Shown: positions 6,622 to 61,411 of the stretch, piece by piece
Position numbering within the stretch: position 1 is the first letter of the stretch
Layout of the letters: each line of letters opens with the position of its first letter
Source of the DNA: Trichoplax adhaerens
Taxonomy: Eukaryota > Animalia > Placozoa
Assembly (NCBI RefSeq): GCF_000150275.1
Contig: NW_002060943.1
Location: forward strand, 12,595,694 to 12,659,693
DNA length: 64,000 nucleotides
Direction: 5' to 3'
The notes under the pieces: model-generated
Seen by the model: the letters and a program-made list of their open reading frames with translations, nothing else
What the model was told of the DNA's origin: nothing
Databases searched by the model: none
Program-made: the position numbers and the translations under genes

Positions 6622-8493
6622 TGAGTTCTCCTGTGCGGTAGTTTTGTACTACTTGCGCTCACACAAGAATAAAACTTTTCTAAAAGTTTAGAATAGTTTT
6701 AAAACTTTTAAACTCTTAAACTCTTTATGTTCTGCTAATATATTCGAAATTGGCTTAATGTAATAGATGTCACATTTATCATTATCTTATTTTTAAACAT
6801 ACGTTTACCAAATTATAACCCACAAGACGAAAAGTGTCACACAGCTCATGATTCTAAATTTAATTATGGTAGCTAGAGTGAAGTCTTTGAACATATAAGT
6901 TCTCATAATTACTGATGTAGGTTGTTTACCAAAGTTTGTATTTGAAATTTCTTTAAGATTAAAAATATTCACAAATCGGCAGTGAATGCTTAAAATTACT
7001 TATTGAGACTTTCTTACCACAGCGTTGTAGCATGTTCTTTCTATATAGAGATTTTTTAATAAATTTCTTTCTAATTTAGATACTTTTATTCTGAGAATCC
7101 AATGGCACCAATGTTGGAAGAATAACGTTATAGATTAAAGAATGCTGTGGTCGTTACTGTATTGTACTTATATGTTAGCGATAGTTTGATGAATAATTTT
7201 GATCAAATTACCAAAATCACGTTCAACGCTTTTATTCATTCGATTATAAAATTCAGTAAACAGAATCAATAGGGTTCAAGTGTTGATTTTCATAAATTAA
7301 TTTTTTAAGCAACGATTAAAAATAGTCAAATAGGATAGTATGTCATACATCAACGTCTATCAAAATGATTGTATGTGCCTAAGCCCATTACTTGTAACCG
7401 ATTCTATATTTAATAATGAAAACCAGCGACGCTGGGGATACTCCCAAAATGTTATGAAAGTACTCATGTGGATTCGGTAGTTTTTTCATATTTTTAAATA
7501 GAGTCATAAAAGTTATTTTCACCGAAATTCTAAATTGAGTGTAAACTTATGCTTGTAAATAAACATACATATTATTATTAAAGTATGAACTAATTTTGGT
7601 AGTGATGATATGATGAAAATTTAGATAAATTTCCTATAAAAGTGGGCCAATAATTTCAATTTAATCTAAACCGCTTATAAAAACCGCTTATGCTTAATGC
7701 ATATCAGTGAGCTGGTAAAAGTAACATATAAGTTTCGAACAAGCTATTATCATTAAGTAAGAAACGCCATACACTACGCATATCGTTGCTGAAATTCATC
7801 AATTACAGTAGCTCAAACTTGTATTGAGATGCCATTAACTGTACTATTTTTATCGTGGTTGGCTTGAATGAAGGCGGAAACAATATTGAATACCAGAATT
7901 GTCTGGCATTCTTATATTAAGATAAACTTACGCAATGAAATAGACATACCAGGCAAATTCGTCAAGGAGCTATGATATGCATTCCTACCTTTTTGCCTAT
8001 CATTGTATACTTGTAAGAAATTAATAAGTCTAAGTCATTGTCTCGTTGTTTTTTGACTTCATTTAAAATTTCAGTTTCCAAGCTTTTCTTCCAATAGCTA
8101 GATAAGATAAAAAATTTTGAAAATCTAGATATTATTTCAAAACGTAATGAATTCGTTATTATATGCTAATGAATACGGATGGAAAATATCTCCGATCTAT
8201 GCCAATTGACTATCTATGAATTCTTTAATTAAATTATATTTATGATGTGCCTAAGCATTAAGATACTTAGATTAAGTATTAGTCTAATTTCGCTGTATCG
8301 ATTAGTAATTTGGCTAAAATATGACCTATCGTAATTCAGTTTTAAAGTCTTTACTAGTTATGAAATTTACGGTTTAAACGGATAATAAAAACTGCATGGC
8401 ATTCAGAAAAATTTACAGTTTTTCGAATAATTCAATGGAAAAAGGCATTTATTACCTAAATTTATACAATTCGCTCTGAGTTGATGCTTTGGA

Positions 8494-11400
8494 TTATAAA
8501 AGTTCTTCGGCGTCATCAGGCTTTCCGTTTAAGAATATTGTATATTTTAATGATTTATTTTACTTCAGGTATATTACGTGTAATATAAGAAAAGTTATAT
8601 TCGGTTTTAGCCTTACCAAAAATAAATAGCAGGACATGGCTTCTTTGACGTTATTCTTTTCATCAGACTCGAGAAGAATTATCTGGCAGAGCTCCGGTGG
8701 AGGAATTTCACTTACTGTGAATTTACACTTAAACATAATACTGGTCGCAAAACTAGTATGCCAGTTAAGGAATAAATCTTTCATGCAGGTTGTATTTGAA
8801 TCGATGGAGTCCTGAACTAAATGACTACTAATAAATTTTACTTTGTAGTAGCCGCCACGTAGAAATATTTCTTCATTTGCATCATTGATTAACTGATACA
8901 ATTTAAGTCTAGAATTCTGTTCAGGTCTGGACTGAACTCCTTTCTTGGTTATACTTATCTTCAAGAACAGAAAGGAGGAAGCTAACTGAATTAATTGAGC
9001 TTGAAATTGAATAGGATATTGCAAAGAAAGAGATGGTATAGGCAGATCGATCTTAATTAATTTTGCTAATGATTGATCAAAAATAGATTGGTCAATCAAG
9101 ACATTAATATTATCACTTTTAATGTAAAATGTTGAAAGTTGTTCGATGGAGAAAACAATACAAGGCTGCTCATGTTTGGTTTCAATTCGTTTATAATCCT
9201 TAGAATCGAATCTATATCCGCTTCTTTCTATGTTTTGGTCAAGCAGTGTTACTTCTGGACATTCCTTGGTACCATTCGAATCATAAACTTGCTGCGGTTG
9301 TAAAATAGGCAATTTTAATTTAGGTGACTTATCATTGCGGACATTAATCAGCAAATCATTCGGCTCTAGTTGAACTACTTGTAGCAGTAATTGGCCAGTT
9401 TTGCTTTCATGGTTATGATAACAGAATGTATCGCTGAAATAATATTTGACAGTAATAATAGTATCTTCCTTTAAACTATCAGCTGGGATATGGAATTCAA
9501 ATCCTGGAAGATTACTTAAGGTAATACAGTTGTCTTCCATGGCTTTGCAGTTTACGCTTTTACGATAGCATTTCATGGTAGCTGAAATTGGAACATCATC
9601 GATATATTTTAATAGTTGCACAAATTGAATACTAACTTTTATATTTTTTAAGTATTTAAAGTAAAAGCTAGAGATGTACTAGTAGAAAGCATAGAATTTC
9701 AGTTACCATTCTGTATGTCATTCTATCATAATATTAACAAATCAGGATACTCAAATTTAATTTGATAACGTCAAAACTAGTTCCAGTTATTACGGAAATT
9801 TTGAGAAAATAATCTAAGATAATTCAAGTTTAGGTAAATATTTTATGATCATTCTGATTTGTGCTTATGATATCATCGGATCATTTATTAACGGATATGT
9901 CATGTACATCCACTTGCCTCTTATTCGATGAGTAATTGCTATCGTTGCTAGTTGAACTAATTGATGTCCAGTTTTTCTAATTTCTTTTAACGAATTCATT
10001 AGTAAACTATCACAAAATAGAGTAAAACTTTTCTTGTTTAAGCATTTTAGAAAATATGTTAGGTAGAGTTTTCTTTCTTCTTCTATAGAAGTCTCAATTG
10101 ATATAGATTGATTCAAATCATAGATTTGCTTGGTAAATGGATTCCATAATGCAGCAGGAACAAATTTATTCCAATTATCGTCAATACTAACTACATCAAT
10201 GATTTGATCGATATCACTGTGTGTCGGGGATAGCTCCCAAATATTGTCTAAGTCGTGTTGTTACAATAAAAAAATAAGAAAATTAGATAAAATTAAAGCT
10301 TAAAATTACTACTCTACCAGTGATTCATGGAAATGCTTGTTAGTTTACCTCATTTGTTGATATATACTGTTATAATTAAATGCAGATGAAAAAAGCTAGG
10401 AAATATTGTAATTCTGCATATTGAAAGTTTAGTGGAATATCGAAAAAACTGCTTCTGTTAATTATTGATAGTATTTATCGTTTTAATTACTGTATTATTT
10501 GCTGATCAGTTATAGGGCTTAAAAATTTTAATTATGAGGTACTTCTGTTCAAAAATGACAATATGAAGATATCTCCTTACAACTATATTCGATTGCATAC
10601 TCAAGCTTTAGTCTGTACACATGATCATTAGTTTAGCTGGCGATCTTTTCCTTTTAAATGTTTACTTTAATCAATCAAGGCACATCTTAACTTCTAGTAC
10701 ATTAACAAACTGCCAATTAAAATCCTATTGCACGATTCTTTAATTCAAAATTACGTTAACCTTTTCAGTGATGTCATTTAAAGGACGCTACACTTAGATA
10801 TAACAGTAATTCAAAGAAAAACTCTTAAATTTTAATTTATAGCATACCCTTGACATTTACTTTGTTCCCTAGATTCCAATCGTCTAGAGCTTTAAAACTC
10901 ATGGGAGAGTAACATTCTTGGCATTTGATTTGTTGATAACCAAGACGTTGATGAACGTCGGTTATACCATTTAATCGCTGACATAGATCGCATTTAAGGT
11001 AAAATTGACCACGAATATTTTCGAATTTTGGCATTTTCTTATTTGTAATTGATATCAATTCCTCTAGCAAGACTGAATGTGGACTAAACTTATCAATAAA
11101 ATTTTTAACATTATGAACTAATGTATTTTTTGATGTAGAATTATCCAATATTTCATATTGATATTGCATTGCTACGGTGGATTTTTCTTTTTTGACTACA
11201 ATACAATATTGGTTATTTAAAAAAAAATATTTAGCATAACGATGGAAGAACTGGACTAATGGATTTCCCCATTCTTTGAGACATGATGATATAAGATCTC
11301 GAAAAAGATTATCTGGAATATAAGGCACTTGATCTTGTACATTATATCCTACATGAAGCCAGTCTGATTTTTCGTAGGGTTTTATTGTATTAGGTTCCTC

Positions 11401-13977
11401 TTCAACATATTGAGGTAGTACGTAAGGAATAAAATAGCCACGATTGTCTTGATATTGCTTATCGGAATCACTGATTTCGGATATAATGCCATAAATTTTT
11501 AAGACATCAATGATCATTTTTCTCTCCATATCATCGAAGTTAAAATGGCTAGCAAGGCTATTTAACCATTCGCAGTTTATTTTTTTCAAATAATTTATTT
11601 GGCCTAATTCGTCATGAAATTCCATGTCCTTATATCGCTGTGGATACCATTTTGAAGCATGACCAGCTATGTTTACAAGCCACTGAAGATCAGTAACAAT
11701 AATTCCTTCATTTTGACAATATAGAATGTCGCCAGCATCATTTAAATAGGATAACATATCAAGAAAGAAATTTTCATCTTCATATAATCCAATATCTCGC
11801 GATAGTTGGCGTATATCATCCACTTTCATTATTTTATGAATTGAATAACCCATTATATTATCAAAAAGATTTATTGATAATTCTTGGTTGTGATGCTTCT
11901 GAACAGCTTCGTGTAATATTTGCCCCATGAAGAGCCATTTTGCCGGTATGTTTTCCTGAGAAAGTGGTAGAGACTGTAGAAACTGTCTTATCATAGCCAT
12001 TAGTTCATTTCTACACTGTCGGCGATTATTAATGATATCCAAATGATTATCTTGAAGATTGGAATTGAAAATAATTTTTGAAGAGACTACATGACTTTTT
12101 AAGAAAGGTAAGGATTTTAATAAGCCTTGAATTAATTGCTCAAATTGACAAGTTTGTTCTTCATGGATTTTGCCTTGGTGTAAACCGACCAAAATTATAA
12201 TTGGTAACGAATATTCTTGAGTTTGCTCGTTCATAGTTATGCTGAGCCGGTTTTGAGAGGTATCTTTACCAATTATGGTAACCAGCCATTCCTTGAAAGT
12301 TTCTAGATATGAGATTCTTTCTGATGAATAATGCCAATTTTGCAAAGTCTCATTTATTGCATCAGTCATATTTAAGGGAATAATATATAAGTTGCTTTTA
12401 GGAATGAACGGATAGTAGGCAATAGAATGGGCCACAGAGATATTATTACTGCAAAATTTGATAGCCTGAGAAGGTTTATTTGCAGTATTATTATTCCAAG
12501 TGAAGTATGATTGAAGAGACTCATTGAGTTGTGAATTTTGCCTATAAAGGCGAATTAATTTTTCGAATGGTGTTATAAAATTAGAGAATGAGTCATTAAT
12601 TTTGGGCGTAGTTATTGTTTCGGTACTTTGATAATTTCTATTTACTTGTCCGTATTCTTCCTCCTTAGTAACGTTTGTTCGTGATTTTGAGAAAGTATTT
12701 CCATTACTTTCCTCACCACAGCACGTATTTTTAGCAAATTTTGTAACTAAAATATTCTTTAGCAAGGTGTATGTCACGAAGGTAAAAAGAAATACTTGAT
12801 CATCGTTCAATTTACATGCAACATCATCCGTAAAGCTAATTCCCGTATGTGCAGCACCAGTTAGTTGCTTTTCAATTCTATATGCAGAAATATTAAGCAT
12901 TTCTATCAAAGATTGCGTACAAATACTTGTATATCTAGCACTCATAACGCTAATTCTATTCAGATTATTGTAAAATTTAGCATTGCCCAAAGCCCTGATG
13001 CAAGCTTTCAAAAATTCCTTGTTGCCTGTAGGTGATATGAATAAAACGAAATTGAGCTAATATACGAAAAGATAATTAAAGATTTACTGTATTGACAGAT
13101 TATTTATGATCAATAATTAAAATTATTATTACAAGTCCAAACGTACGCAATTTGATTTTTTTATTCACTCTAATCGCAAAATAGAATACGTTCTAACACC
13201 ACTAAAAGAATCTTACCGACAAGACAATCTGATAAAATAGTTTTTTGATTCGATGATAACAAATCGTTAGAAGTATCTTCAAATAGAAAGGATGTCACTA
13301 ACGTATAACATATTTATTATAACACCAATTAAAAACAACAGCTAAAAATCTCTCTTTCTTAGATTAAAACTGAAATGAACTCAGCTTTATTGATAAAAAA
13401 CGTTCTTTGTGCTGGTTAAATTATATGAGGTTAAAATATTGCACTTGGGTTTACGCATTAAACTTATAGATTGGCTTGGAGTTACTTACAATGTATACTT
13501 TGGCAGTTTTTTCCATTTAATTGACATTTTTGATTCAAGCCTCCTAATGAAAAATTAATTGAATTCTGTTAATTGGTATAAATATTAGTGATTTCTACTC
13601 ATCCTTAAAATAAATTAATGCTGGCCGTTATTACCAGATAACCTTGCTGTTTCGTCTTGCCTATTCAAGCAAAAAGCGATATGTTTCCCGGAGTTTATTT
13701 TTCTGGCTATTTGTTCTGCTTTCAAACAGCAGAAGCAAGCATGATGATATTTCTTCTGCTTGATATAGATGTTGATTAAGATTAGAAACAGATCACAATA
13801 AAAATGATCATCGTACGGAGTTTCATTAGTTAAAATCTTGACGGCATCGACTAGCTTTTCGATTTCAGGCAAGATTTCAATCGGTTGATCAATATCTTGA
13901 TTGTAACTTTGATTTGCAGATAAGATGAGGGAATTAATCTCATCTATTATTAAAGATTTCGTTGATTTATTACCCAT
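8494..13977 (-). CDS. Gene B: multi-exon Roco-family protein, myristoyl/TPR cap - degenerate Roc - COR - Zn ribbon - CARD-like - ZU5 - UPA-like (~1318 aa)
   Basis: Exons 13977-13635, 13543-13490, 13276-13217, 13025-10848, 10247-9918, 9581-8617, 8520-8494. All join in frame; the internal exons before ZU5 (54, 60, 2178, 330 nt) are phase 1-1. COR motifs: IPAKWL, LSYLNDAGDILY, IIVTDLQWLVN, YFIPYVLP, YIPDNLFRDLI. ZU5 motif GFEFHIPADSL...VVQLEP. Confidence 0.75.
8617..9581 (-). CDS. Gene B exon 6: ZU5 + UPA-like domain
   Basis: Within ORF 8560..9621. Acceptor tttcag|CT, donor TTG|gtaagg. Homologous to ORFs 23934, 30112 and 60150. Confidence 0.8.
10848..13025 (-). CDS. Gene B exon 4: Roc-like (degenerate G motifs) + COR + CxxC...CxxC
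   Basis: ORF 10837..13011. Acceptor tacag|GC at 13025, donor AAGG|gtatgc at 10848. Roco-type motif order is recognisable (ISVMSARYTSICTQSL, HTGISF, YPFIPKSNLYII, IILVGLHQG, then the COR motifs). Confidence 0.8.
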
Positions 13978-23885: not shown

Positions 23886-26256
23886 CTACGAATGCTGTAA
23901 AATTTTATTTTATCTATTTAATAGATTGATAAGTTATTGGTACGAGTGAAAATTAAAAAAAATGATAGCGATTGCCAAGGATTTATAAGCAGTAAGGGCT
24001 ATACTCGTATCATGACTTACTTGAATTAGATAACTAGACACAATTTCTTTATCGGTATCCATCAGAGTTACTTTACATAATTCTGGTGGCTTAAACTCTG
24101 ATTCCAATATTTGGCATCGGAACCTAACGAAGCGACTCTCTAGGCAGCTATTATCCCATGTGAAGTGCCCAACATTAGAATCACCTGTCAGGGGAGAATG
24201 ATCTAAATAGTCAGATGTAAACTTAAGCCGATAACTTCCATTAGGAAGTTTAAATTCTTCATCCACGTCAGTGACCAGTTTTTCAAACGTCCAATTTTTA
24301 TACCGCTTTTCATCGGGTGAAATTTCATGCCCTTTGAGAGCGATTTTAAGCCACAAAAAAAAAATTGGTGTATCAGTTCTTACGAAATAGGCTTGTAAAG
24401 TAAGAGCTGACGCCTGAGAAGGAGAGGCTACAGCACCGAAAGCTGTAAATTGGCTTATATGGAAAATTGCACTTCTATCTTCACCGCGCTTAATCCAATC
24501 ATGACTTCTGTTGCTTTCATCCTTCTTCCATTCCAAAGTCTCACCATTTTGATAAAATAAACAGACAACTTGTTCGTCTTCTGCATGTTTCCCGTCCGAA
24601 ATATTTTCCTTTACAACGGGTAGTTGTAATGTTGGTAATTGATTGTCAGGTGTATTAAGCTGCAAACCGCTTGGCTCAATTAGAATAACTGGTGACACAA
24701 ACTTTAATTTCAATCGATTAGACGATAAAATGAACGGAGGATCAGTGTGGGAAGCTTTAATTGTCACTAATGTGTCACTAAGTAAACAGTTTTTAGGAAT
24801 TGTAAGTTTTACTTCTGGTAATCCCTTCAAAGTAACGCAAGAATATTCCTTTGCTTGGCAATTATAAGTTGTTTGCGGAGTATCTGTCTCCTCTGTTGAA
24901 ATTGATCAAAATGGCAATATTATCGTTTATTAATTTGGATAGTTCGCTACCAAAATTAGTATTCCATATAGTACAATAGCACAAAATATTGTCAACTAGA
25001 TACTAAATCGCGACAAGTAATCGTATAAATTGGAATACGCCCAAGCAGCAGATAATAAGAATCTAAGTCGTCTCGAAAGTTACGGTTGTTTTGCTTGTTT
25101 GGATAATCACTCAAATCTAAAGCATTACATTTTAATAACATTTCCATGCTTTCAAGATCGTAAGAAATAAGTTATGGTAGTTTCTTTACGTTATAGTGTT
25201 TTTATTATCAGTAGATCAACATTATCTATGAAAATTATTACATGGCGTCGAATTAAAAAATTTACCTGCTATAGGATTCGCCGACACTTTTTCTCCACCT
25301 TCCAAAGCTAAATCGTCAACGATAGCGATATCTTTTTGTTGCAAATCTTGGGTCTCCAATAATATTTGATTACTGGTTAGCTGGATATCGATATTACGGC
25401 CAAATTCATGAAAAAATTTTGCTATTTTGCGCATGTAGCATTGTACGATAGGATGACTATCGCCTAAGGTTGACGTATAGTTCTTCAAAATTTTCTGATA
25501 CGTTTCAATAGCTAGATTATATTTCAAACGGCAAATATGGATATCTGCTATGCAGTTATAAACATCAATTATATCATAGTAATTATGATCAGTTGATGCC
25601 AATAATATCTTGACTGAACTTTGGCACATCTCCATGGCGTCATCATACTTTAATACCTTAAAGTAGATTTTACCAAGATTTTCAAGCGACTTTGCTACTT
25701 TACGACTGTCTTCCTTTCGGGCCTTAAGTCTTATATCTAAAGCTGCATGATGAGCAGCAAGAGCTTTACTGTACTCTTCTTTATCATAATGAATGTATCC
25801 AATCAGAGTATAAGAATCAGCAACATCGAGGCTATTCCTAGGACAAAGTATACTACATTTTATTTGTAGCGATTTATTAGCTAATGCTAATGCTCTATCG
25901 TATTCCCGGAAAGCTTTCTTTATTTCTGCTTCCCTATCATGGCATCGGGCCAGAAAAACTCCATCGCCCTCTTTCTCGCTAATTTCTTTGACCTCCTGAA
26001 TACAATCTGTTGCTTTCTGGTAGTCTCCTATAATGATACAAACTGTTGCTATAAAAAGAAGCAGATCTTTTTTAATCAGAGTAAATTCTGCTGATCTTTG
26101 ATTCTCCTCTGCTGATTTAGTTAATTGTAATCCTTGTTCTAAAAAAGATTTGGCTGCTAGATAGTCCCTTGCGTTGTAATATAATTGACCATTTTGCCGC
26201 ATCGATTTTATCAGAATTATCTTTTCTGAGGCTGACTGATTCATAGTTAATTCCAT
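23886..26256 (-). CDS. Gene C: TPR - ZU5 - UPA-like protein (~620 aa)
   Basis: Exon 26256-25266 (TPR; donor GCAG|gtaaat, phase 1). Exon 24892-24021 (acceptor caacag|AG; ZU5 motif VKLTIPKNCL...FVSPVILIEPSG; donor CAA|gtaagt). Last exon uncertain (ttttacag|CATTCGTAG, 23894-23886). Confidence 0.75.
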
Positions 26257-28417
26257 TTTATCGTAATCATTGAAAGTTTATCCATATCATAGTGCTATCC
26301 AATCCATTTCATTCAATTGACATCGTTTAGTTTACAAAATTATCGTAACTTTCCCAGTAAACAGTAAGCTTCTACTACTGCGCTTTCGATACTATAAGCT
26401 AGCATAACTAAATACGCTGCTATTACATACTCGTAATACAAGCAGTTGTACGGAAACCGGCGACTCGCAAAAATGATTTATCTTCATTATTTTGACTATT
26501 CATTTGATTAATAGGCGGACAAAAGATTGATTCACAACCAATTTTTCCCCGATCATCATTGTATCACGTCTAACCTATTGCTATTGCATGGATTATTCTT
26601 GAAAGTTAACATCTCAATGGCATAGTCCTAATAAATAGTCGACGAAGCGCACTAATTGTTCTGTACTTGCAAATTCCATAACTTATTGTCTAACATCGTT
26701 GTCTTATCATTCAAATCTAGACAAAAGCTATGTGATTAAAAAATGTTACGACATCAAAGTTACCTTTTTCTAGTCAAATAAATTATAATAGTGACAGTAA
26801 TATTTTATTTTCAAAAATTTCGATGATTTACTGCGATGCTATCAACAGCGTGTAGGATTAACGCTAGGAAGTTAATTGGCATCGAATAAAACCTAAACAA
26901 AAATATACGATATGAGTTAGATACAGTTTGATATTTTTTAAAAATTGCCGCAATATTTCCTTTTCAGTATTGTATTTGAGTGTTATTTCAAAAATATATC
27001 CTTAGATTATTATAACACTGCAATTAAAGATTGCCATTGTATATTTATAAGGTGTTATGCAAATCCTCTGTTGAATTGACTTTAAATGAATAAGTTAAGA
27101 AACGATGAGGGAAACAAAATATTGCAAGTTTAGTTTTGAAATTGAAATATATCAAAAGTATAGTAGCATGCAAATGTGAATAATTGAATAATCTTTTGCA
27201 TGTTGTTGAAATTAAGTTCTTCTTTTTGCAATAAAGAACCTTGGGCTATTACTGAAGAAGTCTCAATTTACCGATTGTCATATTTTATTCAGCAAATAAG
27301 CAAGCCATACTATATGGGTACTGGTAGCCATTTACGTGCAGATATGGGTATCTAATAGCAAGAATTAAAGTTGTTGGATTCGTTAATGATAAGTATAACC
27401 TTGACAAACCAGCTTCGAGGCAAAGATAACGTAAAAATTTTTAAATTATTATTGTCTCCGGGATTCAGTATCCCTTAATTATCTCACAAAAAATTTAGAC
27501 GCCTTTGCTTCTATGTTAAACAACTATAGGACTCTCCTTTCATCCTACTATCTGCTGAGCTTAAATACAGTACTCTTTGGCAGCAGCTATCATGTATGAT
27601 TCATAATAGTTCACGAAATATGGTTCATATTGAATAGCTTAATTAATACAGAAATTATTTATGATCTTAGACATGTCCTGAGCGATTCTACATAATTCGA
27701 TTATAGAATATCCATACAAAGAATTATTTATAGTATCACCTATAATTGAATATCTTCAGGATATTCATCATAAACGTTACAAGACATAACACTATAATCA
27801 ATTAACATTAGTTACCGTATAAGAACTCTTACTACAGTGCAGCGTAATTTATTGTAACAAAATAATAACTACCGTAGTTATTACTGTATGTCATTATTAG
27901 TTATGTCCGTATATAAATGTTAACCACTAAATTTAGCCATTCACTCTTCACGGTAGTTCGTACTGTGCAATAACTAATTACAAACTCGCAATAAGTAGTA
28001 ATTTTAACTGTGTCCCGAGTCTATTTGATGCAATTACTGAATTAGTTAACGCGTTTAGGTTATCCATAACTGGAGATACAAAATCATTGCATCATGAATC
28101 ACATCGAAATAACTGGTCATATTAAACTTTACTTTATTCCTATCATCGTTCTGACTTCCTATGCGTTTGAATTTCTAGCGATAGCATGTTGCTCCAATAT
28201 ATTCGTAGATGAATTTCATTTCATAGCGTGGATAAATGCTCAGATTATGTTTTATTTGTTTAATAAAATGAAAAAAGGTTCTTAAGTATTTGCGTTAATT
28301 ACGCTATTTTTACCGCTTTTACAAAGATTGTAAAAATATCAAAATATTGAAACATAAAATCAGTTAAACATATAAAGATGAACGTCTAATACTGACTATA
28401 ATGATTTTCTACAATAA

Positions 28418-29832: not shown

Positions 29833-32800
29833 TTAGAACATCATTTCTATCGCTCAATAGCACAAAATAAGTAAATGTTTAGTAAACTATGTACGATGAA
29901 ATAATTTATGTTTCGCCAATAACAAATTAATCTGTTAATGGTTCAAAGCTAATTATAAAATTACCTTCGACGAACGACTCTCTCAAGTTCTCTTCATTTA
30001 CACCATTTGGCTGTTAAAATCAAATAAATCAGAAATTTACAAACGATTTATGAAATGTAAGTTGGAAAATATGGGTGAAATATTGATTATCTGATAGGGT
30101 CTATTAATATTTTAACTTACTAAAAATATAAAACTTGAAATAACTTCTGTCGGTTTCCCGTTTTTCCCTTCACATTGTATGATTATTTGACAAAGTTCTG
30201 CTGGCTCATCATCAGACAGTTGACATCGGTATGTGACTGAATAAATATTTCTCGCATTCCAGTTAATGTAAATATCTTTGATGCTATCTTTTGAATCAAC
30301 TGAGTTATGAATTAGATAGCTCGAGAGAAATTTAATTTGATAGTAACCGTTCTTCAAGCAAGTAACATCTTCCAAATCATTAAATAATTCATGCTGCTTA
30401 ACAGATTTATACCGCTTTGGTTCATATGGAATACCTTTTTGCGTAATAACAATTTCAATGAAAGCTGAGCCTTTGCCAGTTACCGATAGAAACACTCTGA
30501 AGTCAATCTGCTGCTGTAAGCGAAGACTAAGAAATTGTGGACTTTTTGCACTGAAGTTCTTAGATGGCCGCTCAGAATGATTTATTCCAGCACAAAAGTA
30601 GGCAAAATGATCAATTTGGAAAACACACGCTTTTTCTGTCCTTTTTAAAGGATTTCCAATATCATCATCTGTTGACCATTTTGCATACAGATTCTTGCCA
30701 GAAAACAATTGTATCAAGTTTTTTTCTTCATCATCTATCAAACTAGATGGTTTCGATTCCATTCCATGAAAGAAAGGCAATTGTAAAGTCGGATATTGCG
30801 AGTTCTTAATCAATTCTAAACGATCAGGCTCAATTCTAATAATTGGTGATAGCAGTGTTGCTTTAATATTTTGAATACCATAGTTGTACGGTGGATCTGC
30901 AAAATAAACGGTTATAGTAATTTCTGTATCTCTCGCTAAACATTCTACAGGAATTTTTAGCTCAAAGCCAGGCAAGGACTCCATTTTGATGATGTTATTT
31001 TCATTGGCTTTACACAAAAATTTTTCAGATGGGTATTGAGTCATGACTATAATGTAATAAATGAGGTAATTATATATATATACACGTATGAAAGATTAAA
31101 TCTTTTTATTCAGGCTATATCAAGAGAAAGATAATTTATTACATCTAATGGTCTAAAATTGATAGATTGCAGAATAAAATTATAGTAAGCAATAAGTAAT
31201 TATCAGCTATACCTTCTGGTCGTTCTTTAAGTCTTGATGTTGCGCAACGGTACAATTGTTGGCCGATAGCTTTGATCTTCTCTAGGGAACTGGCAGATAA
31301 AGCAGAAGCCAATTCATAAAACTTTAGCTGGGCCATGCATTTTAGTAACATCACCATGTGTTTTTCATCTCTTTCTTGAGATGAAATATTCAAAGAGAGA
31401 CTTTTCTCTCTCGCAGAAAGCAACAAATTGCTTTGTATATATTTCTTTACTTCCTTGAATATGTCTGGGTCCGACAAAGATTTGAGCAAAAATTTACTTA
31501 TTATTTCGTTAATATCGCAATTTGGTAAAATTGACTTCCAATTGGTTCCTAAAAAATATAGTATTTCCGTTGTAAGTCTTATTGCCATGTAAGTAATTGC
31601 TAAATTTAATAAATTTATATTTTTATAAATAGCTGTTTTAAGTTATCCTGTGATTGACTCGTCATTAACGGCCAGCCAATAAATCAATTCATTGCTTAAT
31701 TTTAAGTAAAATAGTCCGTTGGAAGTAAGTATACAGTTACCGTTTAGGTTATTTTCTTTCATAAGATGGCAATTATCGCTTCTTTCCTGTATTTCTAGAG
31801 TTGCAGTAACTTTAGGTTAAAGAATTACATGTTTAAAATGTGAAATTTACAATTTTGAAAAATGTTAAAGTTAGTTTGACAATTGTTTAAATTTTATTAG
31901 ATTACTTAATCTGTAACAGCAGTTGGGATGAATATAACGTGATTTGCTGACAATATTAGTACATTATCATTTCTATTAGATTTGCAAGTGATGAAACATT
32001 AAAAGTAAATATCATAGTTTCACTGTTTTTAAAAGCGCAGGCGCTTGAAAAAACTTTAAATGCAGCACAATTAAAAATATCTGTTGCTTATAATGCTATT
32101 GGTAGCTAAATTCTTTATAATGCCAATTATACTTGAATACGAACAGAAAATTAACTGTTGCTATGCTGAACATCAATTTATTTTATGGCAAAATTTAACC
32201 AGTATCATTAATTCTTTGTTCGATTTACTTAATTTTAAATACCGTATAAATCCATTTTAGGAGAACTAATCCAACTTGAATCAATTAGACATGCTGCATA
32301 CGAGCCTTATGATATCAACAGTCGAGTAACTATCACAAATAGTTTAATTTCAAACTACAGTTGTTGACAAATTACATGCTTTAAGATTCGATAAACTTCA
32401 TTTATACGTGAAAAGTCAGGATTAAATTTTACTGTACTGTCTATATGCAGAGTCATTTTTTCTTATCTATCTTCCTATCTTGTATAAGATTGGTCGCTTC
32501 AGTACGTTACGCTGGTTTTTGGGTAAATAATAAACTAAATATCCATTACCGGTTACCGCTTGTCAAATTTTGCGCCAAAAGATTACACCCAGAAAACTGT
32601 CATGACCTTTAAGGCTTAATTTGCTAAGCTTTACTTTACTAACGCTGCTTCTGTCTGGGTTCCTCTTAGGATTTAAATGTGGTCTACGACTAATTTACTT
32701 ACCCATTTCAGGTTTCCCGATATCATTCGGCGTTTTATCATGTTTCTTATTTTGAAATGAATCATCATTTCGATCATTCGTATCTTGCAAAATAATATAC

Positions 32801-40397: not shown

Positions 40398-43300
40398 TTA
40401 TTCAGTTGGTGAACTATGCATAATGTTATTAACTTGCATTATTGAAAGTAGATGGTTATAGTTAAACAGTTTATCAAATTACTCTTATTTAGCTTACGCT
40501 GTTACTATCGAAAATAAGACTGTATTCCCAATACAATAAATTTAACCATCTTAAAATTTTCGATATTTCCGTGCAAAACAATCATCAGGTTAATTTATCA
40601 GTTAGTCAACCGTTCAATAAGTACGAGTATTTACCTGTGACTGATGATTTCTTATTTTGGTTAGCATCCAATGTTTCAGCATTGGGCTTCTCAGCAATAG
40701 GCTATTACAAATGAAGATTTCGTAGATTTAACTAAACTTAGATTTTATTCTAAAATGCTTATTTTAACCCTAGCTACTGGACGAGTATCTTACCCTTGGG
40801 ATAAAACTCGAATCGATCTCCAAACCCATGGAATTATGAATTGTGATCTGGCACAATTCAGGTAGTATAACGGCTGTGCTTCGTTCCTTGCATCGATACG
40901 ATATCAAGATATGGTCCTTATTGTTTAGTCGTAGAGGCCTGACCATTGAATTTTTCTCCCTTTCCAGCTCGTCTAGCATAAGGTGCTTCGGCGTGAATCG
41001 AACTTCATACTGCTCGTTTTCACTTAGTGGAATGGATGCTTTAAAATTATTTGAAATTTCAAGTTGATTGAATCTTGAAGGGTAAGGTTTAGGCTTATAT
41101 TGGTAGCCATGGCGTACGAAAACCAACCGTAAATAGATAGCTTGGCCTGTTGTGCGTATGATGTACGACCGACAGAAGAATAAATGGTCGAATTCGCTAG
41201 TCTTTTCAGGTTGACGATGAGCAGGGTTAGCATCCGTGAATTCTTAGAGATAAAATCAGAATCGAACATATTAGCTTAGAATGTGAGCGGTAATATTTTT
41301 ACTTAGTTGTAGCTGAAGGCAAAATTGAAGTTGCACTACGATTGCAGGTAAATCGATTTAATTGATATGATAAGTGGGTGATTGTCAATAAAAACGGTCA
41401 AAGGATATGTTAAAACTGTTCTACAAATCGGTTGTCAAGGCTTCCAGGAGTTTGTTCCAATAATATTCAATCATGCCTTACTTTGGTAGCTACAGGCGAT
41501 AGATGAAATACAACTTCGATTCAATTGAAGCGTTACAATTTGTAATTCAGCTACAATCTAATTTCACGGTATCGATTTGAAGTGGTCAAGTTCGAGCAAT
41601 CCCTTAATGTAGCTATTAGACCAGAATTACGACGTGACTTGTAAAATGGTTGGAGCGACTGATAGTTTGTATTAGAAACTTGAAAGAAATACAATTATTC
41701 CATCCTGCGATAACAAGGAATCAAAGTATCAAGAGCCAATAGCTCAAGGTTGTACTGATCTGCCTGCATGGAATTGGCGTAGAAATAATCTAAGGCAACA
41801 ACATAATTAAGCATCTTTCAACAATTGTATGTCAAGGGCTTGCCACGCCCCTGTGCTCCCGGTCTATACTGTATACAGTATATTGTTACGTCTATAAGCA
41901 GTCGTTAATTTGATACCCCCATTAGGGTAGGGATTCGAATTGAACAAGCTAGACTTAATTAACTACTCTAATTGTACTCAATGCGATAAGCCGTCGACAT
42001 AATGAAAATAAGGAAAGGAAAAGCAGATTGATACCAAACGGCGGGAGCAAATTTCACTACATAGATTGGTCTAAAATTGAGTTCTTGAAATGAAAAATTT
42101 GTCCATCGGTAACACGATCACATAATGTCTCGTGCCGTACGGACGTCTCATGTACACCTGTACGATACGGTGTTAGGGTCACCTGTTGAACAATTTGGTA
42201 CAGTTATAACCGGCCTGCGACACTTTTTTAGTGACGTCACTATTGGGTACCGTGCGTATCTTTTTGTTCTAGCGCATCGGCCCTAAAAGTCGTGATAGCC
42301 CGGCTACGGATTCAGCGCACACGACTTATTACAGTATAGAATATGAGCACTGAATCGATCATGTTTGATTTTCATGTTACGACGAGAGATGAATAAACTC
42401 ACTCTCATAATTGGTACAGAATGGACACTAGCCATTGATTCATTTCATATTTTTTGAGATATGTCAATCTATGTCGAATGTATCATTAAGGCAGCTTGAA
42501 ATGGATAGGGCTAAATTGTAGACAGGCATTGACGAATGGCTTAAGCACGGCTTAAGTCAGTACAGTAACAATATTCGGAGTCACTGTCGAACAAAGTACG
42601 TAATGGAAAGTATAAAAAACATAAATAAACAACTGCTCTAACGTTGAACGATATCGCAGAATAAAAAATACATATTGGATCAACATCATCCATACTATGG
42701 ATTCCACAATTAATATATGAATGAATCACGATGATCAACACTGTATACCTTTATTAAAAGAACGCTTTCCTGGTGGTGATGCGAAAAATTGATTTTCTTT
42801 TTTGCATTGTTTTGCGTCGCTACCAACGAATAGACTGGATGCGTCATCGCTGTTGAAAATTTCCATTTTTGAAACAGTGACATTTGGATTCATGTTCTCC
42901 AGTAAGTTCTCACAAGGATGATTTGGTTGCTGATAACCCGGCCAAGACTTGATCCTATCGTGATGATGTCCATGATAGAGTATGATGGAATCGACAGATT
43001 CGAACGCGGGATCACCGTACTTGTCGGGTGAATTTTTTCCCATAGTGAAGGTAGTGTTGCGATGCTCCGAGTCAATGTTGTCGTTCGCGGGTTGATAGTT
43101 TTGGTACTGATACGAAGCTCTTAGATAGGTTTGGATAGCGGCTGCGGGAAAACCCAATTTTTGCAGTAAAATCTTCAACCAAAATTTCGGATCCTCTACG
43201 GCTAGGGACAAGCTAGTTTGCCGTCTGAGAACTATCTTCATGCTGTCAGCATTCGCATTAGATCTATTTGCCAATTGGTGAGCAATACTGTCAGCTTTCA

Positions 43301-47000: not shown

Positions 47001-47583
47001 GCGGTCAAGATGCGCATAAGTGTATAACCGGTACTTACTGAATGAACATCCATTAATTTGTAAATCGTGACTTGTTTTATATAACAGTAAATTCAGTCTT
47101 TCAATATACTTCTAAAAAGGTGCTCACACAATTCATGAGAATTTAATTTTACAATACAGATCACAATTCATGTTTTCACTTTTATAAACATAACTACGGA
47201 ACCATTCAATAAGCAATAGGCCATGCTTCCTATGAAATCTTTTCCTTCACTATGTATAAATATATATCTTATAATCCTAAAACAATACGAATGCTTTCTG
47301 CCTACAGTACTTTACTAATACGAATTAAACAAAGAACTGGATACATAAAGGTAGAAAGTTAGTCAACCATAGGAAAATTGCGCGCATACGGCCAATGAGT
47401 CATAGTTGCTTGTCGTCACACAACTAACTACCCGCGTAATAACGCAAGAAACTCCTCTTCATATGATACAGTACGATCATTCAGTCAAGTTCAAAAAGCT
47501 ATTTGGAATAGCAGTTAAAGATCGCCAACCTTTTCCTAATATCCATATGATCCGAAAAAACAGCAAAATAATCTCTTAAGTCA

Positions 47584-49942
47584 ATGACGGATTCAAATGT
47601 TCGTGATCTTTATCAGAGAGCATGTCAGAGCTATGATAAAAATGGCTTTACTGAAGCTAATTTATGGTTCGAGGAAGTTATAAAATCTATCAAAAGAGAA
47701 ACTCCAGATACTGATTTACTGCAAATGAAGTTCGATAGTTATTTATATATTTCCAAATACTATGGCCTACGAGGAGATTTAGAAAAAGCCAAAAATGCCT
47801 ACCGCAACGCTCACAATATCTATCAAGTGTTCGTTCAATCAGTGGGAAATTGTCACGGAAAATGTAACATAAATAAAGTCGATGAATTAAAAGCTAGCCT
47901 GGCCAAAGTTGTAAAAAATCTGAACTCCAATTTAAAACGTTCATCGCAAGATGTAATTAAGGCCAATATCTATGCCTACTTAGGAGCTGTATATGAATGC
48001 CAATCCAGATATTATGAAGCTTGTTCTAATTATTATAAAGCATATGAAATAAAGAAAAATATTCCAAGCGAAAACAGCGATGCTGTTGCCAAGTTGTTAG
48101 TTTACATTCAGTCCCTTCCTTCACACCAGTCAAATTTCACCAACACTTTGCAAAACAATCAACAGCAGCGTGGTAACTACGAAAAACCAAGTGAAACTAT
48201 TGATGAAAAAGTAACACTTTTAGATAATAAAACAGCTTGCAAAGAGACTGAATCAAATCCTCAGAATACATCAGTTGGCAACCATATGAAGCAATTAGGA
48301 ACAGAGAATCGATTGAATCAAATAAATATCAACTATAATACTGCTAGGTGTTCTTCAGCATCACAGCCGGATCATTTTCGCGGTATAGTACAAAATTCAT
48401 CATTCTATCTATATTTTGATTTTATTTGTCTTTTTTTTTCACCTTATATAAATATACTCGTAGAACACTTTTTCATCTAGAATTTGCTGTCTTAACAGAC
48501 TGTAAATTGCATAAATTAATAGTAGAAAACTGAATAATTAAATACTAGTTTATGTGTATACAGCACGAACAATATTTAGGGATCTAGATTCAACATAAAT
48601 AATTAAAATTGACTTATACGCAGGGAGAGTTAATTAACACGCGTACAGTTACTATTTATATAGTGCTACACTCATGTACTGGTACCGCATTGCAGTGATT
48701 ATTCCAACTTGACCACTACTATCTAACACTTTCAATGATATCTTGCCGGAAAAATTAATTTTGTGTAACATTTACTACTCGAGGATTTTATTTATGCAAT
48801 ATTCTCAGCAATGCTTAATATCCAACTTGCGAATACCGTCATGGGCAGCTAGAATTACTGTACTTTATCTACTGTAGTAGTCGGTGAAACAGTATAAATG
48901 CAGAATTACTTTTGTTAATTAACAACTTCTGTGAGAGAATACGAGTAATTACGGTATCTTCTGTATTTAATATCATACCAGTTCCAGTAATCCACCAAAC
49001 GATTAGAGCCGAATTATACCTTACTATCTGCTCGATTTATATCTCTAAGGTTTAAATAGCACATCTACCCAGCAAGATTTTGGTGAAAGCATTGCACGGA
49101 CTAGTACATGTGTGAATCCTGCTCTATGTCGACCATCCATACAATCTGAAACCACTACTGAATCAGATGGACGCTTCGAATTTCATTCTCATCTTTTAGT
49201 TTTATCGCAGGATATATTTAATGTGAAATTAAAATTCGTGAGACTGGGCCACGTAGATGAATCTAAACCTTTCCCTTCAAAATTGAGATATTTAAAGGTT
49301 GAAAACAATTTCATGGAATACATTACACTAAATGATAGAGATAGTTATGGAATACGATTTGTACCAAGTTGTTTAATATTGAATGAGTTGGCAAGTGAAA
49401 AAAATAATCTGGACAGACCTCTTACACGAGATAATAAGGACATTATCACTATTACTTTACGATGCAAGATACAAGACAACCCCAAGGACTATGCAGAATT
49501 ATGCCAGATCTTCATTATAAATTCCCTAAATACAGTGATCAAGTCGTGCTTCCTTTACAAGGTAAGATGCTCGTATCAGAACTAGGGCTAATGTGAACTT
49601 TTTGAATCGGATTCTTTACTGAATTCTCTTATCCTGTAATATATCTTTTTCGCAACAACAGCCAGATGATGCTATCTTTGATCGCCCAGTTGAGAAATCA
49701 TCTAAAAAAGGTAAATATTTGCTTCTCAAATAACTGACTAGTCAATCTACGCTTTATGCCGCAGACGCGTACAGTAAAACTTGATAACTATTATGAACAA
49801 AAATATTGTTGATATCCATTATAATTAATTATAATTACTGTACAAGTGTACATCCGAGTTTTATTTGCTAACTGAGTACGGCATGTATTTAGTACTTCGT
49901 AATAGTATATTTCCAGCTAGATGTCTAAGCACCGACATTTAA
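47584..49942 (+). CDS. Gene F: short TPR - disordered linker - UPA-like domain, no ZU5 (~461 aa); inverted paralog of gene E
   Basis: Exons 47584-48382 (donor CGCG|gtatag, phase 1), 49050-49561 (acceptor atctctaag|, same as in E), 49662-49710, and a tentative last exon 49917-49942 with AATAAA at 49981. TPR motif ANIYAYLGAVYECQSRYYEACSNYYKAYEI. Confidence 0.72.
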
Positions 49943-52313: not shown

Positions 52314-53515
52314 TCGAACGATAAGCCTGGATGATTCTTACTTACATTTAGTAAAATTGATAAATACTAGTTTACAAATAAAAATACACCACCTAACCGC
52401 GAAATGAATACTGTAGTTAATACAATCTACCGTTGCTACACACTTGACACAAATGGTGCACATTGACCGAATCAGATACACGTATTTATGTTAATCTATA
52501 CTGTATATTATTATTATGGATGATAGTGATGGCCAGATGTCGGGCATTGGCCGTAACATGCATATCACTGTATTTCGTGAAATTTTTATCCGTGATTCTA
52601 TTTTACTTTTCAGTTGTAAATTTAGTGCCACAACTACTAAACCTAGTTCTCATCGGGGTATAGATTAAGATTAATCAATTATATTGATTAGTGTCACACA
52701 CCACTAGTAACAAAGTAGTCTACACACGCCAATCCTTGCGGAGAACGCCACTTACTAACTTAAGAGGCGAGATTAGCTATATCACCAAATAATTCAGTTC
52801 CAACGACCGAATACTATGGTATAATTATAGCGTCACAGATAACAATTAGTGAGTAACTTGCTACGGTAATTGACTTTCATACAAAGGAAGGTCCTTAATT
52901 ATAACGATTTGTATCTTTAGGCGCTTTATTCTTAATTTGTACAATTGGATATATCAAAAGAAAGGCGATTTCAAATATTTACCTTACCAGTCTACGCTGG
53001 TTGAAAGCTCTTGTAGTACCACAGTATCAAATTTGTTCTAAATTTTATATGCACTATATACATTTACTTGCAAGATTATTGATGGTACAATCTTGAGTAA
53101 CGGATTACACACAGTAGTCTACTCTTACCGCATTGTTGAATTACTTTACGACCTCTGATCTCAAGTGCTATTCAATGTCCGATCGATTCAAATAGGATAC
53201 AGGTCACGTAGAATGATGGTCTATTAGCATTAACTATCAAGTTTAACCCCGAAAACCTGTAGCAATCTTTTCAATAACGAACAGCACTTTTGAATAATAA
53301 ACTAATCTGAATACCTCTTTTTACGGAAGCTTCTCAGAAATCGCTCTGTCGCTTAGTCTAATTATATGTTTCAATATTGTTGCGTTAAGTTGATTTGCAA
53401 CTGATCTGTAATAGTTTAGTCAAATTGATGGTCAGAACGATTAAACTTAAACTCCTACTATACAGGATTATATTAACAGCTCAAGTGAAATATTTTTTAT
53501 TGCATCTAATTCTAG

Positions 53516-53799
53516 CCCAAAAAGCATTAAGTGACCGTAGCAAAGAATTTTGTAGAATAGTCCCTGTAGACGAAATCATAGGACAACTGAAAAATGATGG
53601 AATTATAAGTGATCATCAAGGTAAAGAACTGAAGATCTTGAAGCATGACTCAGATAAACGGGACCAACTGTTAACTATACTAAAGAAGGAAAGGAGCGGA
53701 GAAGATTTTGAGAAATTTTGCGATGTACTTACCGAGAATTCTGTCACAACTGTTCAGAAATTTGGGAAGAAATTAAGAGAAGCAGCAGCAAACTATTGA
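53516..53799 (+). CDS. Exon X: terminal exon encoding a CARD (death-fold) domain; upstream exon unidentified
   Basis: Phase-1 acceptor aattctag|CC. Encodes QKALSDRSKEFCRIVPVDEIIGQLKNDGIISDHQ...KRDQLLTILKKERSGEDFEKFCDVLTENS..., the CARD pattern (L...G.I/L, LL..L, F..F...L). No Met in the exon. Confidence 0.8.
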
Positions 53800-60900: not shown

Positions 60901-61411
60901 CAAGAGATAAGATTAAGGATATCTGCATTAACTGGAATGCTAGAAATAGCTATGTGATTTCCTATCGATGTCAACTTTCTGATACAGTCAATTTTCCTGG
61001 TGATCTTTGTCAAATAATTGTTCAAAGCAAAGGAATAAATTGCCGGCCAATTGAGGCTTTGTCAAGTTTTATATTTTTAGTAAGTTAAAGTATTACAAGC
61101 TCGGTTCAAGATTTATATTGGTTTTAAACTCGATTTGTTTATTCCATGGAATCGACAGTAATTTTTTTCAATAATTCAATTTTACAGCCAGATGGATTGG
61201 ATGAAAAAGACTTACAAAAGTTCTTAGCCACAGGTAATTTATATATTTTCGTGTAGTGATATGTTTTTATTGAAAACAATTTGCTAAAGTGGAGTCATAC
61301 TATTCAGTACCGTTCAATTCATATTAAATAAGTTATGATTTAATGCAATAAAATAGTGAGCTATTTTAATATCGTAATAGACTAATAAATTTTCTAGATA
61401 TATCTATATAA
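57923..61411 (+). CDS. Gene G: low-complexity leader - CARD-like - ZU5 - UPA-like protein (~567 aa); inverted paralog of gene D
   Basis: Exons 57923-58148, 59094-59153, 59294-59383, 59635-59970, 60148-61079, 61188-61233, 61398-61411. All GT-AG and in frame. ZU5 motif GFELIIPAKCL...LLSPIIRIEP. Confidence 0.78.

What the first reader, a model, noticed from the sequence alone, without database searches (positions are those of the whole stretch)
12170..12960. Roco protein whose Roc domain has lost all GTP-binding motifs (pseudo-GTPase)
Known: Roc domains have G1 GxxxxGK(T/S), G3 WDFAGQ and G4 VG(T/N)HxD, followed by COR. Seen at the corresponding positions in an intact 726-codon exon: G1 ISVMSARYTSICTQSL (no Gly or Lys), G2-like HTGISF, G3 IKFCSNN (no DxxG) and G4 IILVGLHQG (no Asp), while the COR motifs are retained. 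Inference: a nucleotide-independent scaffold, or a dominant-negative partner that dimerises through COR with active Roco paralogs. It has no kinase domain, unlike LRRK and DAPK1.
Basis: partly seen in the sequence, partly recalled or inferred. Interest (0 to 1): 0.8.

Follow-up and report, generated by a model that had tools for sequence, protein, structure and literature searches.

The report
Expressed Trichoplax Roco with dead GTPase
This Trichoplax gene is spliced and expressed and encodes an LRRK2-type Roc-COR module that has lost its GTP-binding motifs while its fold is predicted intact, so it likely works as a switch-less scaffold; dead versions recur in this animal's Roco family, and its allele variation hints that it may now be weakly constrained.

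Summary
Observation confirmed. The 2178-nt exon (10848-13025, minus strand) belongs to Trichoplax adhaerens TRIADDRAFT_52777. It aligns with placozoan Roco proteins, and its predicted fold matches LRRK1/LRRK2/Chlorobium Roc-COR. G1, G3 and G4 are eroded: 2 of 11 motif columns kept versus 63 of 89 other conserved columns (p=0.0011). One correction: the G2 Thr appears kept. RNA contigs give a spliced 1325/1298-aa protein and no other exon with a P-loop. It reads: truncated TPR, pseudo-Roc, COR, CxxC pair, helical (possibly CARD-like) exon, ZU5-UPA-like. Published single-cell tables put it in a pan-epithelial module in two lineages. Neutral decay cannot erase the motifs and leave the frame open. 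Against present function, allele differences are 7 synonymous to 23 non-synonymous (ratio 0.8-1.2; published genome mean 0.37), and no orthologue outside Trichoplax was found. It is not unique: 14 of 39 aligned relatives are degenerate (4-7 separate changes), Entamoeba Rocos were predicted inactive in 2010, and this scan noted pseudo-Rocs in other genomes. Best reading: a nucleotide-independent scaffold. The dominant-negative COR heterodimer is untested. New variant of a known kind, moderate interest.

The parts
13635..13977 (-). Coding exon 1 (aa 1-114): starts MGNKST (fits the N-myristoylation consensus, recalled) and holds a short TPR-like helical region homologous to the N-termini of TPR-Roc-COR relatives, without their long TPR array
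   Evidence: RNA joint 13542/13634; phmmer to P0066/P0012 N-terminus E=5e-8 within the session's proteins; no Pfam hit
13490..13543 (-). 54-nt exon, phase 1-1
   Evidence: RNA joints in 4 of 4 runs; frame
13217..13297 (-). 81-nt cassette exon, phase 1-1; included (1325 aa) or skipped (1298 aa)
   Evidence: Inclusion joints in 4 of 4 runs, skipping joint in 3 of 4 runs
10848..13025 (-). 2178-nt exon encoding pseudo-Roc, COR and a C-terminal CxxC...CxxC pair, phase 1-1
12910..12942 (-). Eroded G1/P-loop SARYTSICTQS
12856..12867 (-). G2 region QLTG, conserved Thr kept (T215)
12439..12459 (-). Eroded G3 KFCSNNI
12172..12189 (-). Eroded G4 VGLHQG
10876..11967 (-). COR region (about aa 513-876), including four conserved Cys (C838, C841, C861, C864; likely zinc ribbon)
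   Evidence: 35 of 47 conserved columns kept; column list; relatives hit Pfam COR-A; fold matches
9918..10247 (-). 330-nt exon, phase 1-1, about 110-aa helical module, possibly CARD/death-fold-like (weak)
   Evidence: RNA joints; paralogous exons at 59646-59972 and about 31226-31564; pairwise BLASTP E=6e-5 to ORF 53389-53796 and weak hit to the CARD region of P0012; no Pfam, PDB or Atlas identification
8617..9581 (-). 965-nt exon, ZU5-UPA-like module; preceded by a GC-AG intron
   Evidence: Atlas top hits ZU5/UPA, score 0.94 but recognition 1893, below the 2300 mark, so a lead; window paralogue 60132-61088 has Pfam ZU5 E=0.023 and matches at E=2e-39; joints
8456..8520 (-). Last coding exon (8 residues and stop), followed by a spliced 3' UTR exon ending its 5' side at 8097
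   Evidence: joints in 3 of 4 runs

Best explanation
The gene encodes a spliced, expressed Roco protein whose G1, G3 and G4 motifs are eroded, which is predicted to keep the Roc-COR fold, likely binds no GTP, and likely acts as a nucleotide-independent scaffold or adaptor in epithelial cells. Shown: exon structure, motif loss, kinship with placozoan TPR-Roc-COR-death-fold proteins, shared downstream exons with the neighbouring ZU5-UPA-like genes. Inferred: a TPR-Roc-COR gene was joined by phase-1 exon shuffling to a local helical + ZU5-UPA-like unit, lost most of its TPR sensor array and then its switch, and was kept because the Roc-COR body still serves as a rigid binding or spacing platform. 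It would be held at a membrane by N-myristoylation (motif only) and present the C-terminal helical and ZU5-UPA-like domains to partners, probably in innate-immune or cell-death signalling (by analogy with the family's Death/CARD/NB-ARC partners and with PIDD/UNC5-type modules; no direct evidence).
For: Selective motif loss: 2 of 11 G columns versus 63 of 89 other conserved columns kept, p=0.0011. AlphaFold model pTM 0.76, pLDDT 71; Foldseek ranks LRRK1, LRRK2 and C. tepidum Roco first (E 6e-13 to 7e-11); VIA Z 24.4, rmsd 5.0 over 486 residues to LRRK1. Neutral simulation: frame open in 0 of 400 runs at divergence 0.1 or more, whereas 9 of 11 motif codons change only at 0.3 or more. Spliced in 4 of 4 RNA or presumed-RNA runs from 3 studies; no indel in the exon in 4 of 4 DNA runs; no stop among 30 variable sites (weak, P=0.18 by chance). 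Pan-epithelial module in both T. adhaerens (0.527) and H2 (0.613) in PMC10580291 supplement 3. All five inner coding introns upstream of the ZU5-UPA-like exon are phase 1. The helical + ZU5-UPA-like pair recurs at 31145-30112 and 59616-61088.
Against: Allele differences in the exon: 7 synonymous, 23 non-synonymous, pN/pS 0.80-1.19; above the published H1/H2 mean of 0.37 at p=0.003-0.046. They include changes at conserved columns (Y373C, P365S, N747S). H1/H2 protein mismatch is 12 of 726 against 24 of 4063 in five other Roco pairs (p=0.008). One presumed-RNA contig skips 119 nt over G1-G2, with a stop at codon 183. No orthologue outside Trichoplax. The neighbour TRIADDRAFT_52778 is in the same expression module, so expression could be regional. 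The model was built on an alignment of motif-intact relatives, which biases it towards their fold. No partner is known.
Confidence: 0.5

Rival explanations
1. A formerly functional pseudo-GTPase gene that is now dispensable: the motifs were lost under selection long ago, but constraint has recently relaxed and the gene is an expressed early-stage pseudogene in a birth-and-death family.
For: pN/pS about 1 with hits at conserved columns; 9 of 9 sites variable among the reference, X1 and X2 are non-synonymous; frameshifting skip in one contig of X18; TPR array truncated; long terminal branch; no orthologue beyond Trichoplax.
Against: Only 30 sites, on unphased contigs of clonal diploids; pairwise ratios range 0.48-1.13. 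Pairwise pS is about 0.01, below the published mean dS of 0.024, so low synonymous variation contributes to the ratio. About 230 H1/H2 gene pairs exceed 1.5, including a homeobox gene the authors judged functional. The downstream exons give 4 synonymous to 5 non-synonymous, 0.31-0.47, not significant. The X18 skip is absent from 4 DNA runs and 3 other RNA runs. An excess of amino-acid change also fits diversifying selection on an immune gene.
Confidence: 0.28
2. A dominant-negative or decoy subunit: it pairs through COR with motif-intact Roco paralogues and damps or tunes their GTP cycle.
For: COR is the best-kept part (35 of 47 columns). Motif loss arose 4-7 times among 39 rows. TRIADDRAFT_61019 (intact) and 61020 (degenerate) have consecutive gene numbers on a contig of the same length and are sister rows. 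Other COR genes share its expression module: TriadG57945 and TrispH2_004407. COR-mediated dimerisation of Roco proteins is established knowledge (recalled; dimer entries seen).
Against: Its COR is further from intact paralogues (mean 28.8% identity) than these are from each other (median 36.7%). Six H2 COR genes among the first 30 of 68 rows seen are in the fibre-cell module rather than the epithelial one. No specific partner is indicated.
Confidence: 0.15
3. The domain still binds a nucleotide in an atypical way (GDP/GTP weakly, or another ligand) and is a rewired rather than a dead switch.
For: G2 Thr and G4 His are kept; PMC5593906 notes that atypical binding cannot be excluded for all pseudoGTPases (passage).
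Against: P-loop Gly, Gly, Lys and Ser/Thr are all replaced and two residues inserted; G3 Asp and Gly and G4 Asp are lost. p190RhoGAP pG1 with comparable erosion bound no nucleotide (passages).
Confidence: 0.07

Closest known systems
Placozoan TPR-Roc-COR-Death/CARD Roco proteins (e.g. TRIADDRAFT_52746 = P0066, 61019 = P0023; the expansion of at least 17 genes in PMC4104024 section 5)
   Same: Roc-COR-CxxC module at about 30% identity over some 550 residues, TPR-type N-terminus, no kinase family listed.
   Different: G1, G3, G4 eroded; TPR array cut to about 110 residues; ends in a helical exon and a ZU5-UPA-like module not found in the relatives held here; below Pfam detection for Roc and COR.
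Roc-COR of LRRK1, LRRK2, Chlorobium tepidum Roco, Methanosarcina Roco2 (PDB 8e05, 8fo9, 6hlu, 3dpu, 4wnr)
   Same: Predicted Roc-COR tandem fold.
   Different: 10-15% identity; no LRR or kinase; no nucleotide motifs.
Entamoeba histolytica IMLRK proteins (PMC2927912, section 6 part 1 read)
   Same: Roco proteins predicted from sequence to lack GTPase activity (all but one of nine).
   Different: Those carry myotubularin, LRR and kinase domains, in an amoebozoan; loss judged on four interface or catalytic positions.
Class i pseudoGTPases: p190RhoGAP pG1/pG2, CENP-M, fungal dynein light intermediate chain (PMC5593906, passages)
   Same: GTPase fold with degraded G motifs, proposed scaffold role.
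   Different: Those were tested for binding (pG1 shown not to bind); none is a Roc; this one is untested.
ZU5-UPA(-death fold) proteins: PIDD, UNC5, ankyrin, FIIND of NLRP1/CARD8 (roles recalled; Atlas clusters)
   Same: C-terminal 320 residues resemble ZU5-UPA clusters.
   Different: Assignment is a lead only; the helical module precedes rather than follows ZU5-UPA; fused behind a pseudo-Roc-COR.

Membership tests
Roco family (by descent) | Roc-type G-domain fold directly followed by COR | tested here: met
   Sequence kinship to Pfam Roc/COR-A-positive proteins, E down to 2e-89; model matches Roc-COR structures. The query itself has no Pfam hit.
Active Roco GTPase | G1 GxxxxGK[S/T] | tested here: not met
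   SARYTSICTQS; no such motif anywhere in the 1345-aa H2 protein
Active Roco GTPase | G2 Thr | tested here: inconclusive
   T215 aligns with the Thr of 20 of 22 intact relatives, but the loop aligns and models poorly
Active Roco GTPase | G3 DxxG | tested here: not met
   CSNNI at WDFGG
Active Roco GTPase | G4 [S/T]HxD | tested here: not met
   LHQG; His kept, Ser/Thr and Asp lost
Active Roco GTPase | G5 motif | not tested
   Not located in the alignment
Class i pseudoGTPase | GTPase fold lacking G motifs | tested here: met
   (predicted fold)
Class i pseudoGTPase | No nucleotide binding in vitro | not testable with these tools
   Needs a binding assay
LRRK/DAPK-type Roco kinases | Kinase domain in the same chain | tested here: not met
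   Spliced product has none
Functional (non-decaying) gene | Open, spliced, expressed reading frame | tested here: met
Functional (non-decaying) gene | Present purifying selection (dN/dS well below 1) | tested here: inconclusive
   7 synonymous, 23 non-synonymous; pairwise 0.48-1.13; no distant orthologue to test
ZU5-UPA proteins | ZU5 then UPA beta-sandwich domains | tested here: inconclusive
   Atlas 0.94 with low recognition; paralogue Pfam ZU5 E=0.023; single-sequence fold failed; no PDB profile hit
Death-fold (CARD/DD) domain | Six-helix death fold | tested here: inconclusive
   Only weak pairwise similarity; no hit with a home-made Death profile, Pfam, PDB or Atlas

The most novel reading that the evidence does not exclude
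Placozoans repeatedly turn duplicated Roco genes into pseudo-GTPases that work as partners of the active ones, in the way pseudokinases or helper NLRs do. This gene is the extreme case: a sensor-less, switch-less Roc-COR shuffled onto a PIDD-like helical + ZU5-UPA unit, acting as a constitutive epithelial adaptor whose alleles diversify under pathogen or symbiont pressure. It would be a natural test of whether Roc-COR can signal or dimerise with no nucleotide cycle.
Probability: 0.18. Interest if true: 0.7.

Novelty: new variant of a known kind. Interest (0 to 1): 0.4.

Why it matters
Whether Roc-COR is a nucleotide-driven dimerisation device, and what COR does without the GTP cycle, is an open question for LRRK2-type proteins. 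A natural animal Roc-COR with no G motifs, beside many intact paralogues in a culturable animal, is a ready control for nucleotide-free structure and for heterodimer tests. Repeated loss in one gene family also suggests a pseudoenzyme tier in placozoan immune-type signalling. The value drops if the gene is simply decaying, which the allele data leave open; degenerate paralogues with lower H1/H2 divergence (TRIADDRAFT_61020, 3 of 828; 61609, 4 of 797) may be better models.

Tried and rejected
No whole genome is held for this window, so paralogues came from protein searches, not a genome scan. Pfam found no family in the query exon or the full H2 protein. phmmer against PDB gave only an augmin hit (E=0.003), taken as chance helical similarity. 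A profile of alignment A1 against PDB was swamped by TPR hits and is uninformative for Roc. Word-based searches found no relative other than the gene's own cluster and none for the C-terminal part among longer proteins; these miss even the 32% paralogues, so they exclude only close orthologues. The single-sequence fold of the C-terminal exon failed (pLDDT 31). The helical exon was not identified by Atlas, Pfam or PDB. Complex prediction of the query COR with the COR of intact TRIADDRAFT_52746 gave no answer (0.19 and 0.17, mark 0.34, alignments not used). 'Unseen exon supplies a P-loop' was rejected. 'Classical pseudogene that lost the motifs by drift' was rejected. 'Assembly error in the motifs' was rejected: none of the 30 variable sites in four DNA runs restores a motif residue. 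The 119-nt skip in X18 has no canonical splice ends and was not seen in 4 DNA runs or 3 other RNA runs; contigs drop rare variants, so it is unexplained. Supplements: PMC8639732's file could not be read; PMC10580291 files 1 and 4 were cut when stored, so the orthogroup of TRIADDRAFT_52777 itself was not seen; figure 1 of PMC4104024, which lists the 17 genes, is not visible, so whether this gene is among them is unknown.

Full report
Identity. The 739-codon minus-strand ORF at 10837-13056 is identical to the last 726 residues of Trichoplax adhaerens TRIADDRAFT_52777 (P0002). Its 90% cluster also holds the Trichoplax sp. H2 protein RDD37830.1 (P0003, 1345 aa) and TRIADDRAFT_52776 (P0004), so the H1 annotation splits one gene in two. 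Pfam finds nothing in the query. phmmer against 1.84 billion representatives gave 56 hits including the gene itself; the best others are 30-33% identical over about 550 residues. Of 29 relatives scanned, 28 hit COR-A and most hit Roc, often with TPR, Death, CARD or NB-ARC. Of 20 looked up by cluster, 12 are named Trichoplax, 2 Ptychodera and 6 are unnamed ENA/Logan records.

Motifs. I aligned 42 sequences (the query and 41 of the 55 other hits; 14 short or partial hits were left out). G1 SARYTSICTQS sits on GPRNVGKS-type loops, G3 FCSNNI on IWDFGG and G4 VGLHQG on VASHGD. Among 100 columns conserved in at least 85% of 22 motif-intact relatives, the query keeps 2 of 11 G-motif columns (T215, H442), 28 of 42 other Roc columns and 35 of 47 COR columns; Fisher p=0.0011. 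The intact set was chosen on G1, G3 and G4, which fixes those columns as conserved but does not affect what the query holds there.

Fold. AlphaFold2 on alignment A1 (36 rows) gave pTM 0.76 and mean pLDDT 71, with a strand-loop-helix at the G1 position and a disordered insert at residues 100-180. Foldseek's matches with E up to 0.001 that were listed are all LRRK1, LRRK2 or prokaryotic Roco entries. VIA-align gives Z 24.4 (rmsd 5.0, 486 residues) to LRRK1 and 23.0 (rmsd 3.9, 313) to Methanosarcina Roco2, against 13.2 or less for non-Roco G proteins. The alignment is made largely of intact relatives, so the model shows compatibility with the fold, not its proof. I could not inspect the pocket's coordinates.

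Gene structure and expression. Contigs of four runs (two on record as RNA, two guessed RNA; 3 studies) show joints that give exons 13977-13635, 13543-13490, an optional 13297-13217, 13025-10848, 10247-9918, 9581-8617, 8520-8456 and a 3' UTR exon. The products are 1325 and 1298 aa; the 54, 81, 2178 and 330-nt exons are all phase 1-1. No exon carries a P-loop. The N-terminal 114 residues are homologous to the start of TPR-Roc-COR relatives but lack their TPR array. The 110-aa helical exon and the 320-aa exon have paralogues in the window at 59616-61088 and 31642-30112, and the latter also at 23934-24905, 40770-41243 and 49049-49585. The 320-aa exon is ZU5-UPA-like on a lead level; the helical exon is at best weakly CARD-like. 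The gene thus looks like a TPR-Roc-COR gene joined to a local exon pair (inference). In PMC10580291 (supplement searches and part 1 of file 3 seen; main text not read) TriadG52777 and TrispH2_011036 both fall in modules annotated 'panepithelia', as does the neighbour TriadG52778; the H2 gene is grouped in OG_3004 with TRIADDRAFT_52776, 52778, 52779, 52783 and three Hoilungia/H23 genes, one of which is annotated TPR-Death without COR.

Selection, for function. The query's terminal branch is 2.53 changes per column against a median of 0.75, yet the frame is open. In a substitution-only neutral simulation the exon stayed open in 42 of 400 runs at divergence 0.02, 3 of 400 at 0.05 and 0 of 400 at 0.1 or more, while 9 of 11 codons changed in 0 of 400 runs up to 0.1 and 9 of 400 at 0.3. 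The motifs were therefore lost while the frame was under selection. Four DNA runs cover the exon in one piece with no indel.

Selection, against present function. The 30 variable sites in those four runs are 7 synonymous and 23 non-synonymous (two pairs share a codon), pN/pS 0.80-1.19 depending on the transition weight. PMC6057997 (passages) gives a mean H1/H2 dN/dS of 0.37 and mean dS of 0.024, warns that the assemblies are unphased, and reports about 230 genes above 1.5. Against 0.37 the exon's excess has p=0.046, 0.013 or 0.003. Changes hit conserved columns (Y373C, 39 of 41 Tyr; P365S, 33 of 41 Pro). Pairwise ratios run from 0.48 to 1.13 with pS near 0.01; three pairs have no synonymous site. 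Protein mismatch H1/H2 is 12 of 726, against 24 of 4063 in five other Roco pairs (p=0.008); a sixth pair, P0019/P0067, had 39 of 805 in two blocks and was left out as a probable gene-model difference, as were three pairs of unnamed records with 1.0-2.3%. The downstream exons give 4 synonymous to 5 non-synonymous in one run. One contig in X18 skips 119 nt over G1-G2 and would stop at codon 183. Relaxed constraint and diversifying selection both fit; the data cannot separate them. No orthologue outside Trichoplax was found.

The family. On a quick IQ-TREE tree of 39 rows (3 short rows dropped; careful search unfinished; motif columns left in; several long branches), 14 rows fail at least one of three strict motif patterns, and the label needs 7 changes, at least 4 forced by starred branches. 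Six fail all three patterns, but several of these keep the P-loop Lys, and for the six-member clade with Asn in G3 the loss is not selective (p 0.5-1). The query, P0029 and P0034 show selective loss (p 0.001-0.004). Five rows lack G1 coverage. TRIADDRAFT_61019 (intact) and 61020 (degenerate) are sister rows with consecutive numbers. The query is the most eroded member, not the only one.

Mechanism. Most likely (0.5) a nucleotide-independent scaffold: with sensor and switch gone, the Roc-COR body would hold the C-terminal helical and ZU5-UPA-like domains, possibly at a membrane through the MGNKST N-terminus (consensus recalled). An immune or cell-death role is by analogy with the family's partner domains and with PMC6321704 and PMC8195603 (passages). 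Rivals are recent decay (0.28), a COR-paired decoy (0.15) and atypical nucleotide binding (0.07).

What is known. The Trichoplax Roco expansion is described in PMC4104024 (section 5 part 1 and passages) and cited in PMC11378527 (passages). Roco proteins predicted to lack GTPase activity were reported for Entamoeba in PMC2927912 (section 6 part 1, passages and a supplement search). PseudoGTPases are defined in PMC5593906 (passages). A search of main texts for this gene's identifiers found no paper; searches for Trichoplax/Roco/COR, placozoan immunity, and pseudoGTPase with Roc, COR or P-loop (listings only) showed no paper on placozoan pseudo-Roc domains. The library lacks most subscription papers. 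Earlier notes of this scan report pseudo-Roc domains in an invertebrate, a diatom, a protist and a bacterium (unchecked).

Verdict. A real, expressed Roco pseudo-GTPase with an unusual chimeric layout; a new variant of a known kind. Interest 0.4: the idea has precedent, the function is untested, and present constraint is in doubt.

Noticed in passing
window 8617-61088: Cluster of modular genes built from TPR, helical (CARD-like) and ZU5-UPA-like exons: ZU5-UPA-like exons at 23934-24905, 30112-31095, 60129-61088; partial UPA-like at 40770-41243, 49049-49585; TPR exons at 322-1911, 25222-26277, 47572-48480; a possible Death fragment at 24995-25171 (own profile E=0.08). Mostly invisible to Pfam.
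   Followed up: partly
window 12845-12963: One contig of run X18 skips 119 nt covering the eroded G1-G2, with non-canonical ends and a frameshift; an 8-nt direct repeat lies near both ends. Not in 4 DNA runs or 3 other RNA runs.
   Followed up: partly
window 13217-13297 and 9582-9917: An in-frame 81-nt cassette exon is alternatively spliced; the intron before the ZU5-UPA-like exon is GC-AG, which both annotated gene models miss.
   Followed up: yes
P0040, P0042-P0045, P0049: A six-member clade (includes TRIADDRAFT_61609) with Asn in place of the G3 Asp and an eroded G4 but mostly a kept P-loop Lys: possibly a rewired nucleotide-binding subfamily. 61609 differs by only 4 of 797 residues between H1 and H2.
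   Followed up: partly
P0023 and P0060 (TRIADDRAFT_61019, 61020): An intact and a degenerate TPR-Roc-COR-Death gene with consecutive numbers, sister rows in the tree: a better candidate for an active/pseudo pair than the query.
   Followed up: no
window 8617-9581 and paralogous exons (alignment A2): At the position where ZU5 autoproteolysis would be expected (His-Phe/Ser site of PIDD, recalled), the query has QLST and the paralogues HCGF, HFAY, QFTA; none has both His and Ser.
   Followed up: no
window 53389-53799: A 136-codon plus-strand ORF that looks CARD-like by eye but has no CARD Pfam hit.
   Followed up: partly
P0019 (TRIADDRAFT_62071): Death-NB-ARC-APAF1_C-Roc-COR fusion: two nucleotide switches in one chain.
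   Followed up: no
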